Source of the DNA: a virus
Virus record (IMG/VR): IMGVR_UViG_3300035704_000001
Span: 32,001 to 96,000 of that record
DNA: 64,000 bases
Strand: one strand, 5' to 3'
The position numbers and the translations under genes are program-made. Every line of letters starts with the position of its first letter. Position 1 is the stretch's first letter. A model generated the notes under the pieces. It saw only the letters and a list, made by a program, of their open reading frames with translations, made no database searches and was not told the origin of the DNA. Below are positions 60,088 through 62,614 of this stretch, piece after piece.

Positions 60088-60341
60088 CGCAGATGCCGTT
60101 CGAGCGGCTGATGGAGTACGCCGCCAGCCTGACCGAAGAGGACCGGGACAAGGGCATGGGGGAGCTGGCCGCGCGGGTGGACGAGAAAGCCGCGCGGCTG
60201 GCTGATGCCGTCACCGCGGTCCGGGTCCTAGGCGGAGAACGGACCTACGTCGGCCTGGAGATCCGGGCTGACGAGGAACCGGTCGTGCGGAGGGCCCTGG
60301 CCCGGGACCGCGGGACGCCCATGAGCGGCTGCTCAGGCTGA
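60084..60341 (+). CDS. hypothetical protein
   Basis: ATGA coupling. Confidence 0.5.
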   Translation: MTQMPFERLMEYAASLTEEDRDKGMGELAARVDEKAARLADAVTAVRVLGGERTYVGLEIRADEEPVVRRALARDRGTPMSGCSG

Positions 60342-60518
60342 GAGGACCGCCAGTTCCTCGGAAGTGTGCACCTCGTTGTAGTGCGCGGTCAGTACCGCTG
60401 ACGCGGCGCCTTTCCTGCGCTGGTGCACCATCGGGCGGCCGCATACCCTGCAGCGGACGACCGGCAGGTGCCTGGTGTGAACGGCATGGGTTTCGGGGCG
60501 TGTCTTCGTCTGTGCCAC
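60333..60518 (-). CDS. C2H2 Zn-finger-like small protein
   Basis: CRVC...LTAHYNEVH. Confidence 0.5.
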   Translation of the reverse strand: MAQTKTRPETHAVHTRHLPVVRCRVCGRPMVHQRRKGAASAVLTAHYNEVHTSEELAVLSA

Positions 60519-60581
60519 GTGGTCATCGAACCACGGGCAGTGACCGCTGACCAGGCCCAAGAGGAAAGTCCGGAATCCTAC

Positions 60582-60610
60582 TTGACACCGGTCAGGTGCC
60601 CGCGTAGAGT
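60582..60610 (+). promoter_or_regulatory. promoter with operator driving the tRNA array
   Basis: TTGACA-17nt-TAGAGT; TTGAC-accg-GTCAGGT. Confidence 0.78.
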
Positions 60611-60851
60611 GAGACTCACGACGCCAAACCGGTTGTCCGATAAGACGGACAGCGGCAAGATGGAGGACATGATGTTCAGGTCACTAGAGCAGCGATACGG
60701 GTTCAATCACCCGTGCATCACGCTGCCTGCGTGGACCGAAGACGCCATGGGCGCCGAGGCGGGACCTGGATAGGGAACAAAAGCCCAGACAGGAGCCGCC
60801 ACCGGACACCGGGAGGCGGCTCTCAGCTTGTGAGGGACAACTGAATATCGA

Positions 60852-60924
60852 GGGAGCGTGGCACAGCGGCAACTGCAGTGGCCTCCAAAACCACCAACCG
60901 AGGGTTCGAGTCCTTCCGCTCCTG
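60852..60924 (+). tRNA. tRNA-Trp(CCA)
   Basis: cloverleaf; loop CT-CCA-AA. Confidence 0.85.
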
Positions 60925-61081
60925 CGACCATCGTCAACGCGAGAGCCGCGACGGTGCCTGTCACCTGGCAGTACTTGAGAACTCCACAGCGTGAGCATCG
61001 AGCAGGCTAGCCAGCCTGCTCAGTTAGACGTGCTGGGCTGGCCGCAACCGGGACTCCCCGGGGAAGCCAGCCCAGCGCACT

Positions 61082-61154
61082 GGGGCTATAGCGCAGCTGG
61101 TAGCGCACCTCCATGGCATGGAGGGGGTCAGGAGTTCGAATCTCCTTAGCTCCA
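61082..61154 (+). tRNA. tRNA-Ala(GGC)
   Basis: GGGGCTA...TAGCTCCA; CCTCC-at-GGC-at-GGAGG. Confidence 0.93.
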
Positions 61155-61256
61155 CTGGTGCTGCTGACATGTGTAGAGGGCCGTGACGGGTACCTCAGCG
61201 GCGGTTATGCCGAAGGCCGGGTGTCTCCGGCGGCAAATAGGCGGCGGCACCAGCCT

Positions 61257-61329
61257 GGGGCTGAAGCACAACTGGTTGTGCATCGGTGTCGCAAGCCGAC
61301 GGGTGCGGGTTCGAGTCCCGCCAGCTCCA
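61257..61329 (+). tRNA. tRNA-Ala(CGC)
   Basis: GGGGCTG/CAGCTCC; TCGGT-gt-CGC-aa-GCCGA; A at position 8. Confidence 0.85.
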
Positions 61330-61330
61330 C

Positions 61331-61463
61331 TAGCCGGGAGATGCGGGTTCGAATCCCGTCAGCTATGCAGCCGTCGCCTTCAGCAGTGCACCTGGAGGCG
61401 GCCCGCTCGGCCGAGCGGGCAGGCAGCCAGCTGTAGCTCAACTGGCAGAGCCCCGGCGTTAAA
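61331..61463 (+). ncRNA. circularly permuted tRNA-like RNA (YrlA/Y-RNA-like topology)
   Basis: GCCGG, T arm, CAGCT, structured linker, AGCTG, D arm, CCGGC-GTTAAA; outer and acceptor stems are complementary. Confidence 0.7.
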
Positions 61464-61538
61464 CGGGAAGTGGCGCAGCTTGGCTAGCGCGCCGCGTTCG
61501 GGACGCGGAGGTCGTGGGTTCGAATCCCGCCTTCCCGA
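61464..61538 (+). tRNA. tRNA-Pro(CGG)
   Basis: CCGCG-tt-CGG-ga-CGCGG. Confidence 0.93.
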
Positions 61539-61582
61539 CTAGGCCGGCAAGCGGGGCCGAGAGGCCAGCGCACGGCCACCAA

Positions 61583-61658
61583 CGGGCTGTGGCGCAGTTT
61601 GGCTCAGCGCACCTGTCTGGGGGACAGGGGGTCATCGGTTCGAATCCGGTCAGCCCGA
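61583..61658 (+). tRNA. tRNA-Pro(GGG)
   Basis: CCTGT-ct-GGG-gg-ACAGG. Confidence 0.92.
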
Positions 61659-61776
61659 CTAGGCAGGTCCGACGCAGGCGCCGCCTTTAAGCGGTTCGCG
61701 GCGGAAGCGAGGACGCTCGTCTCGTGTGGTACCGGGGTACCGGGTTCCCCGGACGACATGGGTGGCCTGCCTTTCA

Positions 61777-61848
61777 CGGGATGTGGTGTAAGGGTCAGCG
61801 TGCCTGCTTTGGAAGCAGGAGGATGAGGTTCGAGTCCTTGCATCCCGA
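61777..61848 (+). tRNA. tRNA-Pro(TGG)
   Basis: CCTGC-tt-TGG-aa-GCAGG. Confidence 0.9.
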
Positions 61849-61914
61849 CTGAGGGGAGGAACCCCCGGCACGGGTAGCGCGGAGGGGTCCGCGTCCGGCC
61901 GCCTCCCCCGACAT

Positions 61915-61988
61915 GGAGCTGTAGCTCAGTTGGTAAGAGCGCCCGTCTGAAAAGCGGGAGGTCGGTGTGTCGAGTACACCTGGCTCCA
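61915..61988 (+). tRNA. tRNA-Phe(GAA)
   Basis: CCCGT-ct-GAA-aa-GCGGG; atypical T loop GTCGAGT. Confidence 0.85.
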
Positions 61989-62173
61989 CGATGGACTGAC
62001 GTCTGGCGGCAGCCGAAAGGCCGAGCAACCGGGTGACTGATCTGGAGGCCTCCAGTACCCAGTAAGCCGCGCAGCTGCAGCTGCGCGGTATCAGCCCACC
62101 CCGGGACATCCACTCCGGGGCGCGAGGACGACCGGCGGACCCAGGCGTTACTGGGGGCTTGAGCCGGGACCCT

Positions 62174-62246
62174 GCGGACGAGTCCCAACTGGCCGGGTAC
62201 CAGCCCTCCAAGCTGGTTGTTGCGGGTTCGACTCCCGTCGTCCGCT
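62174..62246 (+). tRNA. tRNA-Gly(TCC), C33
   Basis: GCGGACG/CGTCCGC-T; CCAGC-cc-TCC-aa-GCTGG. Confidence 0.8.
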
Positions 62247-62365
62247 CTTAGGATGTGAAGAGGTACGGGCCCGGATGCTACTCCGGGTTGCGTGCAAGCG
62301 GCTGTCGGGTCGCGGCCGGGCGGGGTGGTGAGGCCGACATCTTGCCACCCCGCGCCGGTTTTCAT

Positions 62366-62516: not shown

Positions 62517-62614
62517 CGAACGGATGACACGGCCGTCCTGCGAATCCGTGTCCGGTCCCTCCCTGGGGAGGAACAAGGCCGTTACTCCGGGGAGAGCAAA
62601 GACCCCCGGCGCGA

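What the first reader, a model, noticed from the sequence alone, without database searches (positions are those of the whole stretch)
61331..61463. Circularly permuted tRNA-like RNA with a closed acceptor stem and a possible UAA anticodon
Seen: wedged exactly between tRNA-Ala(CGC) and tRNA-Pro(CGG), a tRNA 3' half comes first: GCCGG 61333-37, 5-nt variable loop, T arm GCGGG-TTCGAAT-CCCGT, CAGCT 61360-64. The matching 5' half comes second: AGCTG 61429-33, TA, D arm GCTC-AACTGGCA-GAGC, C, CCGGC 61453-57, GTTAAA. CCGGC/GCCGG form a perfect anticodon stem and AGCTG/CAGCT a 5-bp acceptor stem. The acceptor is closed by a 64-nt linker with two hairpins (61375-61400, 61401-61420). Numbered as a tRNA, the residual loop is G32 U33 U34 A35 A36 A37, i.e. 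anticodon UAA, which reads UUA. Known: bacterial YrlA Y RNAs have this T arm/closed acceptor/D arm topology, and permuted tRNA genes exist in red algae and some archaea. Here there is no room for the long Ro-binding stem. Inference: processing of the flanking tRNAs would release this RNA with both ends in the anticodon loop. If ligated it would be either a permuted tRNA(UAA) or a non-chargeable UUA decoder that might explain the TTA pattern above. The anticodon call depends on an unknown junction, so this link is speculative.
Basis: partly seen in the sequence, partly recalled or inferred. Interest (0 to 1): 0.88.

Follow-up and report, generated by a model that had tools for sequence, protein, structure and literature searches.

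The report
Handle-less Y-RNA-type tRNA mimic
Between two tRNA genes this soil phage encodes a small RNA shaped like a tRNA with a sealed amino-acid end and no anticodon loop; it is the tRNA-like "head" of the known bacterial YrlA Y RNAs, here without their Ro60-binding stem or any Ro60 gene, and it is not a hidden leucine (UUA) decoder.

Summary
Window 61333-61457 folds as a back-to-front cloverleaf: T arm, closed acceptor arm, D arm, with the two ends paired in an anticodon-stem-like helix.

A covariance model built only from phage copies that lie beside Ro60 genes finds it at 56.6 bits (E 2e-14). Tandem tRNA junctions score at most 33.7 bits in the window and 48.9 bits in relatives.

The same element, wedged between tRNAs, occurs in related 150-kb soil phages, in other tRNA-array phages, and in cultured Streptomyces phage Immanuel3, where it is unannotated. 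The closing stem and the acceptor stem covary. The T and D stems are nearly invariant, as in YrlA.

This phage and the relatives checked have no detectable TROVE/Ro60, RtcB, Rnl2-family RNA ligase (PF09414) or CCA-adding enzyme.

The 3' tail is not conserved (GTTAAA, GTTT, ATCT, ATAA and others). By homology GTTAA is a relic of an Asn-type anticodon loop. The UAA-anticodon and TTA link is therefore not supported.

Best reading: a handle-less YrlA-type tRNA mimic, released from the tRNA operon by RNase P and RNase Z. It is a new variant of a known kind and its function is untested.

The scan has already reported this class on other DNA (e1-5347618, e1-5669323).

The parts
60582..60610 (+). Only sigma-70-like promoter match upstream of the tRNA array (TTGACA-17-TAGAGT). 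It is the probable start of the transcript that carries the element.
   Evidence: No promoter-like or terminator-like site on the + strand between it and 62300.
61257..61329 (+). tRNA-Ala(CGC). Its 3' processing would set the element's 5' end.
   Evidence: 58.5 bits to the Rfam tRNA model.
61330..61332 (+). 3-nt 5' spacer CTA. Relatives have CGA, CG or CA.
61333..61337 (+). First strand of the closing, anticodon-stem-like helix (GCCGG). G61338 pairs additionally in the MFE fold.
   Evidence: All 5 pairs of this helix covary in the family.
61338..61342 (+). Variable loop GAGAT. It ends in a pyrimidine, as in YrlA; A15-U48 is Levitt-type.
   Evidence: YrlA features from Wang 2018.
61343..61359 (+). 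T arm GCGGG-TTCGAAT-CCCGT.
61360..61364 (+). Acceptor-stem 3'-type strand CAGCT. It forms 5 pairs; positions 1-72 and 2-71 are mismatched.
61365..61428 (+). 64-nt insert that closes the acceptor arm: a 2+3-bp helix extension and two hairpins (61375-61400, 61401-61420). It is lineage-specific; relatives have 6 to 74 nt here.
   Evidence: z = -2.7. It is unique in the genome and in the fetched loci.
61429..61433 (+). Acceptor-stem 5'-type strand AGCTG.
61434..61435 (+). UA dinucleotide (tRNA positions 8-9), conserved in YrlA.
61436..61451 (+). D arm GCTC-AACTGGCA-GAGC.
61452..61457 (+). C26 followed by the second strand of the closing helix (CCGGC).
61458..61463 (+). 6-nt single-stranded tail GTTAAA. 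It is the 5' leader of tRNA-Pro and, by homology, a relic of an Asn-type anticodon loop.
   Evidence: It is not conserved in relatives.
61464..61538 (+). tRNA-Pro(CGG). RNase P cleavage at its 5' end would set the element's 3' end.
   Evidence: 62.5 bits.

Best explanation
The element is a handle-less YrlA-type tRNA mimic. It is a roughly 130-nt non-coding RNA that folds into the tRNA L-shape, with an intact T-loop/D-loop elbow. Its acceptor end is sealed by a hairpin, here enlarged by a 64-nt insert. It has no anticodon loop, because its own 5' and 3' ends pair where the anticodon stem would be. It is co-transcribed with the phage tRNA array and cut out by the enzymes that mature its neighbours: RNase Z or equivalent after tRNA-Ala, and RNase P before tRNA-Pro (inferred). 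That would leave 5'-pCUA...GUUAAA-OH-3'. It can neither be charged nor decode. Its selected features are the two variable helices and a sequence-conserved elbow, the part of YrlA proposed to bind a still unknown tRNA-binding effector. The most likely mode of action (inferred, not shown) is as a stable ligand or decoy for a host protein that recognises the tRNA elbow. It would act without Ro60 and might compete with the host's own Ro60-YrlA particle. Shown here: the structure, the family, the covariation, and the absence of detectable Ro60 or ligase genes. Inferred: the processing. Speculative: the target.
For: The MFE fold equals the proposed structure, z = -3.2. Model R1, built only from 13 Ro60-adjacent phage elements, scores it 56.6 bits, E 2e-14, over its full length. 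In 238 kb of relatives every hit at 50.7 bits or more is an orphan element and every tandem-tRNA junction scores 48.9 or less. On 18 family members 96.8% of cells pair, against 76.2% in shuffles and 37-48% in slid controls, and 15 of 21 pairs change on both sides. The closing helix covaries at 5 of 5 pairs and the acceptor at 6 of 7, while the T and D stems are almost invariant. The combination GCTC + GCGGG occurs in only 19 of 345 tRNAs of the same arrays. Short-loop relatives match the Rfam YrlA core at 30 and 25.8 bits. A Ro60-adjacent phage copy scores 43 bits and lies just upstream of TROVE, RtcB and HD genes. In at least 9 loci copies sit 1-3 nt after one tRNA and 4-8 nt before the next. 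There is one promoter-like site upstream of the array and no + strand terminator-like site through 62300. TROVE, vWA_Ro60, DUF2828, RtcB, Rnl2-type ligase and class II nucleotidyltransferase are undetected in this complete genome and in near-complete relatives. Streptomyces genomes carry canonical copies (65-75 bits); in S. californicus the copy lies directly beside a TROVE gene. The published YrlA description matches: closed acceptor, 'circularly permuted tRNA', conserved T and D stems, variable acceptor length.
Against: The Rfam YrlA model itself does not hit the window copy, probably because of the 64-nt insert. The alignment used for covariation was fitted to the model, which favours pairing. 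The element is dispensable: none was detected in the complete relative G005/L011 or in L005, and L009 holds weak or decayed copies. That pattern fits an accessory function but also fits neutral turnover. The host, and whether it has Ro60, is unknown. GCTC and GCGGG are also the commonest stems among ordinary tRNAs, so shared ancestry with YrlA rather than convergence is not proven.
Confidence: 0.62

Rival explanations
1. Neutral by-product. Recombination or duplication among neighbouring tRNA genes left a 3' half followed by a 5' half. It persists only because it folds well and is harmless as a spacer.
For: Most copies lie between isoacceptor pairs such as Ala/Ala and Pro/Pro. Among this phage's own tRNAs the window copy is most like the adjacent tRNA-Ala(CGC). 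Presence and absence vary among close relatives, and some copies are decayed. The published origin model for YrlA is a dimeric tRNA transcript.
Against: The two helices unique to the permuted form covary across phage lineages. The T and D stem sequences are far more uniform than in array tRNAs. The copy between two Pro tRNAs does not resemble tRNA-Pro. The same element recurs in a distant 46-kb cultured Streptomyces phage. Scores exceed those of every real tandem junction.
Confidence: 0.17
2. RNase P substrate that becomes a two-piece tRNA-like RNA, as shown for M. smegmatis YrlA. The acceptor loop is cut, the 3' strand is trimmed and CCA-tailed, and the result is a nicked tRNA-like duplex, perhaps one that mimics a tRNA cut by an anticodon nuclease.
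For: M. smegmatis YrlA, which has a 7-bp acceptor, is cleaved by RNase P and CCA-tailed in vivo. Many relatives have perfect 7-bp acceptor hairpins. In the window copy an internal loop lies exactly at positions 1-2/71-72. Nicked tRNAs are known signals for the rtc repair operon (title and abstract of PMC10159003).
Against: The window copy has only 5 acceptor pairs and then continues as a helix. No identity elements are conserved; G3.U70 occurs only in L004 and L008a. The phage encodes no CCA-adding enzyme. Most YrlAs are thought to be poor RNase P substrates.
Confidence: 0.1
3. Ordinary Y RNA that works with a Ro60 protein supplied by the host.
For: Streptomyces and other actinomycetes carry canonical copies, and the one checked lies directly beside a TROVE gene. 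The tRNA-like core is the same.
Against: The Ro-binding module is absent. There are only 3 nt before and 6 nt after a 5-6-bp stem, and no GNCGAAN0-1G motif. The canonical Streptomyces copies carry long paired flanks.
Confidence: 0.06
4. True circularly permuted tRNA gene. The ends are ligated into an anticodon loop (UAA or another) and the acceptor is opened, giving a decoder, or a non-chargeable decoder, of UUA.
For: The gene order is that of permuted tRNA genes. The phage has no tRNA-Leu(UAA).
Against: The tails are not conserved, and joined loops would be 9 nt here and mostly about 6 nt elsewhere. By homology GTT is the anticodon position. There is no BHB motif, no splicing endonuclease in bacteria (established knowledge), and no RtcB or Rnl2-family ligase. 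RNase P and RNase Z ends (3'-OH, 5'-P) are not RtcB substrates (established enzymology). The acceptor has 5 bp plus 2 mismatches. L011, which has no detectable element, shows the same terminal-TTA pattern; this last point is weak.
Confidence: 0.03

Closest known systems
YrlA (Y RNA-like A; Rfam RF02553; Chen et al. 2014 PMC4201824; structure in Wang et al. 2018, bioRxiv 10.1101/312249)
   Same: The order is T arm, closed acceptor stem-loop, UA, D arm, all enclosed by a helix made from the 5' and 3' segments. The T and D stems and the tertiary-contact nucleotides are conserved. The acceptor arm varies in length. It is found in actinomycetes and in phages.
   Different: There is no Ro60-binding handle and no GNCGAAN0-1G motif. 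There is no Ro60 gene in the genome. The termini are set by flanking tRNAs rather than by the element's own transcript ends. A 64-nt two-hairpin insert sits in the acceptor loop. The Rfam score is below the gathering cut-off.
M. smegmatis YrlA
   Same: Actinobacterial. Its acceptor-like hairpin can be opened by RNase P and CCA-tailed, showing that such RNAs enter tRNA-processing pathways.
   Different: It is bound by Rsr and encoded next to rsr. The window copy has only a 5-bp acceptor.
Circularly permuted tRNA genes (Cyanidioschyzon merolae, Soma 2007; Thermofilum pendens, Chan 2011; both cited)
   Same: The 3' half precedes the 5' half, the acceptor is initially closed, and the ends pair in the anticodon-stem region.
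   Different: Those genes have a BHB motif, are cut and ligated by the splicing machinery, and yield a normal 7-nt anticodon loop and a chargeable tRNA. None of these features is present or conserved here.
mascRNA / MEN-beta tRNA-like RNAs
   Same: A small tRNA-shaped RNA released from a longer transcript by RNase P and RNase Z, which does not decode.
   Different: They are eukaryotic, have the normal tRNA strand order and an open acceptor end.
Two-piece (permuted) tmRNA
   Same: A permuted gene order of tRNA-like halves in bacteria.
   Different: tmRNA has a tag reading frame, pseudoknots and an Ala-chargeable CCA end. The only weak Rfam tmRNA hits in the region fall on the neighbouring tRNA-Ala or on the element's T arm alone (12.4 bits), all far below the gathering cut-off.

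Membership tests
YrlA (Rfam RF02553 / Chen 2014) | tRNA-like domain in the order T arm, closed acceptor stem-loop, UA, D arm, enclosed by a 5'/3' helix | tested here: met
   MFE fold. Full-length alignment to model R1, built from Ro60-adjacent copies, at 56.6 bits.
YrlA (Rfam RF02553 / Chen 2014) | Conserved T and D stem sequences and tertiary-contact nucleotides (UA at 8-9, GG in the D loop, UUCGA T loop, pyrimidine at the end of the variable loop) | tested here: met
   Sequence matches the Rfam consensus shown. The stems are nearly invariant in 18 family members but occur together in only 5.5% of array tRNAs.
YrlA (Rfam RF02553 / Chen 2014) | Ro60-binding module: a long terminal helix with the GNCGAAN0-1G motif near the 5' end | tested here: not met
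   Only 3 nt and 6 nt separate the 5-6-bp closing helix from the flanking tRNAs. There is no such motif in the 45 nt upstream.
YrlA (Rfam RF02553 / Chen 2014) | Encoded within about 4 kb of a Ro60/TROVE gene on the same strand | tested here: not met
   No TROVE or vWA_Ro60 match in the complete 150.8-kb genome. No TROVE match in G001-G005 and no vWA_Ro60 match in G002-G005. DUF2828 was also undetected, but the positive control did not ring.
YrlA (Rfam RF02553 / Chen 2014) | Score at or above the Rfam gathering cut-off (69 bits) | tested here: not met
   No hit on the element. Short-loop relatives score 30 and 25.8 bits. A genuine Ro60-adjacent phage copy also reaches only 43 bits, so this cut-off is not decisive for phage copies.
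YrlA (Rfam RF02553 / Chen 2014) | Bound by Ro60/Rsr; modified by TruB and DusA | not testable with these tools
   Needs immunoprecipitation and modification mapping.
Circularly permuted tRNA gene | The 3' half is encoded upstream of the matching 5' half | tested here: met
Circularly permuted tRNA gene | The joined termini restore a conserved 7-nt anticodon loop (U33, purine 37) with a defined anticodon | tested here: not met
   9 nt here, and about 6 nt in most relatives with short tails. Tail sequences differ even in the orthologous slot.
Circularly permuted tRNA gene | BHB motif and splicing endonuclease/ligase for circularisation | tested here: not met
   There is no second helix or pair of bulges at the termini. 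RtcB and Rnl2-type ligase are absent from the phage clade. T4 Rnl1-type ligase was not searched.
Circularly permuted tRNA gene | A 7-bp acceptor stem that can be opened to give a chargeable end | tested here: inconclusive
   The window copy has 5 bp plus two mismatches. Several relatives have 7 bp. Cleavage was not tested.
tmRNA (one- or two-piece) | Tag reading frame, pseudoknots, Ala identity and CCA end | tested here: not met
   The 133 nt hold no such parts. ARAGORN finds no tmRNA. Rfam tmRNA hits fall on the neighbouring tRNA or on the T arm alone.

The most novel reading that the evidence does not exclude
Handle-less YrlA 'heads' embedded in phage tRNA operons form a functional class of their own. 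They would be phage-made decoys that occupy the still unidentified tRNA-elbow-binding effector of the host Ro60-YrlA particle, or another tRNA-recognising defence or repair factor, without tethering it to Ro60. That would disarm a host RNA-surveillance pathway during infection. They would also be living examples of the proposed origin of Y RNAs from dimeric tRNA transcripts.
Probability: 0.2. Interest if true: 0.75.

Novelty: new variant of a known kind. Interest (0 to 1): 0.48.

Why it matters
YrlA RNAs have so far been defined by their partnership with Ro60, and the protein that binds their tRNA-like domain is unknown. Copies that keep only that domain show that the tRNA-like head is selected for on its own. 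They sit inside phage tRNA operons, are cut out by tRNA-processing enzymes, and occur in genomes with no detectable Ro60. They also offer a simple bait for finding the effector. One copy lies in a cultured phage, Streptomyces phage Immanuel3 on S. griseus, so the question can be tested at the bench. For annotation, these elements explain tRNA-sized unannotated gaps in phage tRNA arrays. For this genome, the result removes the proposed link between this RNA and the TTA-codon anomaly.

Tried and rejected
There is therefore no expression or end data.
- Close orthologues of the long-linker form: two metagenome pattern scans found nothing, and an exact-motif viral scan found only ordinary tandem tRNAs. 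The 64-nt insert could not be tested for conservation. It is unique in the genome and in the fetched loci.
- The search for related loci with a phage Ro60 protein against bacterial genomes found nothing. A DNA pattern scan replaced it.
- The Rfam gathering search shows only tRNAs.
- The DUF2828 search is uninformative, because its positive control rang nowhere.
- TTA co-occurrence: the crude ORF test is confounded by antisense shadow ORFs and gives only one or two cases per locus. Four Immanuel3 genes contain no TTA at all, which is uninformative.
- attP relic: rejected. A matching 5' half follows the 3' half, there are several copies per array, and an earlier unchecked scan note reports no lysogeny genes.
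- Protein-coding reading: ORFs 61113-61436 and 61183-61542 run through tRNA genes and are spurious.
- Literature: searches found no description of handle-less copies embedded in tRNA arrays. The library is incomplete.

Full report
**1. What is in the sequence**

The window is part of a complete 150,822-bp phage record with 70.9% G+C. It carries a 36-gene tRNA array on the + strand and has no tRNA-Leu(UAA).

Folded without constraints, 61331-61463 gives the following:
- a 6-bp closing helix (61333-38 with 61452-57);
- a 5-nt variable loop;
- a T arm;
- a 5-bp acceptor helix, which continues through an internal loop into 2+3 further pairs and two hairpins;
- UA;
- a D arm;
- a free 6-nt tail.

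The energy is -68.8 kcal/mol with z = -3.2, and no shuffle of 200 folds as well. The tRNA tertiary-contact nucleotides are present: U8-A9, A14, G18-G19, a T loop of UUCGAAU, and A15/U48.

**2. It belongs to a family**

I used the 740-aa gene upstream of the array to fetch 12 related loci at 70-78% amino-acid identity. Their arrays are syntenic with this one.

Orphan T loops in those loci turned out to be the same back-to-front cloverleaf. The copies sit in these slots:

| Locus | Upstream tRNA | Downstream tRNA | 3' tail |
|---|---|---|---|
| L004, L007, L008a | Ala(GGC) | Ala(CGC) | ATCT |
| L006a | Ala(GGC) | Ala(CGC), 82 nt further on | GTTAAC... |
| L012 | Pro(CGG) | Pro(TGG) | ATAA |
| L008b | Gln(CTG) | Thr(CGT) | AACCCC..., next tRNA 36 nt away |
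| L009 13230-13299 | Ala(CGC) | Pro(CGG) | GTTT |
| Window | Ala(CGC) | Pro(CGG) | GTTAAA |

The L009 copy lies in the same slot as the window copy but has a 6-nt acceptor loop. The loop that closes the acceptor ranges from 6 to 74 nt across the family.

**3. It is the YrlA tRNA-like domain**

A degenerate pattern scan of viral contigs returned 119 loci, of which 94 matches were not inside ARAGORN tRNAs.
- One of them (L025) matches the core of Rfam YrlA at 43 bits and lies just upstream of TROVE (Ro60), RtcB and HD genes.
- Short-loop relatives of the window phage match the same core at 30 and 25.8 bits.

The literature describes YrlA as a circularly permuted tRNA with a closed acceptor. It has conserved T and D stems, a variable acceptor length, and a separate Ro60-binding helix carrying a GNCGAAN0-1G motif. 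Its proposed origin is a dimeric tRNA transcript (Chen 2014; Wang 2018).

I built model R1 from 13 phage copies whose contigs carry a TROVE gene, adjacent to the element wherever I mapped both.
- R1 finds the window element full length at 56.6 bits, E 2e-14, and treats the 64 nt as an insert.
- Chen et al. warned that tandem tRNA junctions are false positives for this topology. They score at most 33.7 bits in the window and at most 48.9 bits in 238 kb of relatives.
- Every hit at 50.7 bits or more is an orphan element.

**4. Selection**

On 18 aligned family members:
- 96.8% of cells pair, against 76.2% in shuffles and 37-48% in slid registers;
- 15 of 21 pairs change on both sides;
- the closing helix covaries at 5 of 5 pairs and the acceptor helix at 6 of 7;
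- the T and D stems hardly vary.

The caveat is that this alignment was fitted to the model.

The stem pair GCTC + GCGGG, typical of the elements, occurs together in only 19 of 345 tRNAs of the same arrays. The pattern is therefore variable helices around a sequence-fixed elbow, as described for YrlA.

**5. What is missing**

- TROVE is absent from this genome and from five relatives, four of which are at least 97% complete.
- Also undetected in this genome and four near-complete relatives: vWA_Ro60, DUF2828 (control uninformative), RtcB, Rnl2-type RNA ligase and class II nucleotidyltransferase.
- There is no room for a Ro-binding handle, because tRNAs lie 3 and 6 nt from the closing helix.
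- Among 50 viral contigs with such elements, 22 have TROVE. Among those at least 90% complete, 11 of 21 do. Ro60-less carriers are therefore common.

Cultured Streptomyces phage Immanuel3 (46 kb) has a 61.2-bit copy in the unannotated gap between tRNA-Pro and tRNA-Gly, and it has no TROVE.

Streptomyces, Nocardia and other actinomycete genomes carry canonical copies at 65-75 bits. In S. californicus the copy lies directly beside a TROVE gene, and the Streptomyces copies have long paired flanks.

**6. The UAA/TTA idea**

- The tail is not conserved. Besides the tails in the table above, L125 has CGTTAA, L134 CGGTAAT, L053 ATCCA and Immanuel3 CGTGACTT.
- The 5' half of the window element is identical to a mycobacteriophage tRNA-Asn apart from two 1-nt deletions. 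GTT therefore aligns with the Asn anticodon and AA with positions 37-38.
- Streptomyces YrlAs carry CUGUUAA-type loops on the other side of the core.
- The ARAGORN anticodon of an artificial join changes with the junction chosen.
- L011, which comes from a complete relative, has no detectable element. It still shows + strand in-frame TTA only at ORF ends. This last point is weak.

The link to the TTA anomaly noted by others is not supported.

**7. Mechanism**

- Shown: the structure, the family membership, the covariation, the context, and the absence of detectable partner genes.
- Inferred from established tRNA processing: the element is co-transcribed with the array, since there is one promoter-like site at 60582-60610 and no + strand terminator-like site through 62300. 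RNase Z and RNase P then release it as a linear RNA with 5'-P and 3'-OH ends. Those ends are not RtcB substrates.
- Speculative: it acts as a ligand or decoy for a tRNA-elbow-binding host factor.

Rivals are a neutral relic, an RNase P-opened two-piece RNA, a partner of host Ro60, and a true permuted tRNA. Each is weighed in its own section.

**8. Novelty**

The held literature does not describe handle-less copies embedded in tRNA arrays. Other agents of this scan have already reported the same class on other phages (e1-5347618, e1-5669323). I rate it a new variant of a known kind, of moderate interest.

Noticed in passing
window 62518-62614: The 96-103-nt spacer between tRNA-Leu(CAA) and tRNA-Gln(CTG) is conserved in all eight related arrays. 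It forms three hairpins whose stems change on both sides (for example CACGG/CCGTG, CAAGG/CCTTG, CAGGG/CCCTG) around an invariant loop CCGUCCUGCGAAUCC. ARAGORN finds no tRNA in it. It is probably another conserved small RNA of the array.
   Followed up: partly
window 61156-61256; L011 13185-13319: The Ala(GGC)-Ala(CGC) spacer holds no tRNA mimic in this phage. Instead it shares a conserved stretch of about 70 nt (ATGTGTAGAGGGCCGTGACGGGTACCTCAGCGGCGGTTA...) with relative L011. In other relatives the same slot is occupied by the tRNA mimic.
   Followed up: partly
L004 13241-13374, L006 9556-9679, L007 13216-13356: The long inserts in the acceptor loops of these three copies share a conserved motif, AGTACGC-T-GCGGAA-GCC. 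This suggests the insert is itself a conserved module in that sub-lineage. It is unrelated to the window's 64-nt insert.
   Followed up: no
L064 4055-4200 (- strand): Two tRNA mimics lie head to tail with no spacer (59.3 and 59.0 bits). L009 has up to four copies or remnants in one array. Copy number is very fluid.
   Followed up: partly
L008, between Glu(TTC) and Asn(GTT); L007; L011: In relatives ARAGORN calls a tRNA with anticodon TCA (labelled SeC, a UGA reader) where the other arrays have Met(CAT). It also calls His(ATG) and Ile(TAT) tRNAs. These are possible suppressor or unusual decoders and may be worth checking against the codon-usage anomalies noted for this clade.
   Followed up: no
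L159, L173, L178, L200 (Streptomyces YrlA loci): Canonical Streptomyces YrlAs carry a 5-bp hairpin with a 7-nt anticodon-like loop (CUGUUAA, CUGUCAA or CUGUUCA, that is Asn-like) just 5' of the tRNA-like core. The motif in their terminal helix is GGUGCGCAGG rather than GNCGAAN0-1G. Together with the Asn-like 5' half of the window element, this hints at a tRNA-Asn ancestry for this branch of YrlA.
   Followed up: partly
window 60582-60610: The only sigma-70-like promoter match in 60300-62300 (TTGACA-17-TAGAGT) lies upstream of tRNA-Trp and of the leader region that another note describes as an attenuator.
   Followed up: no
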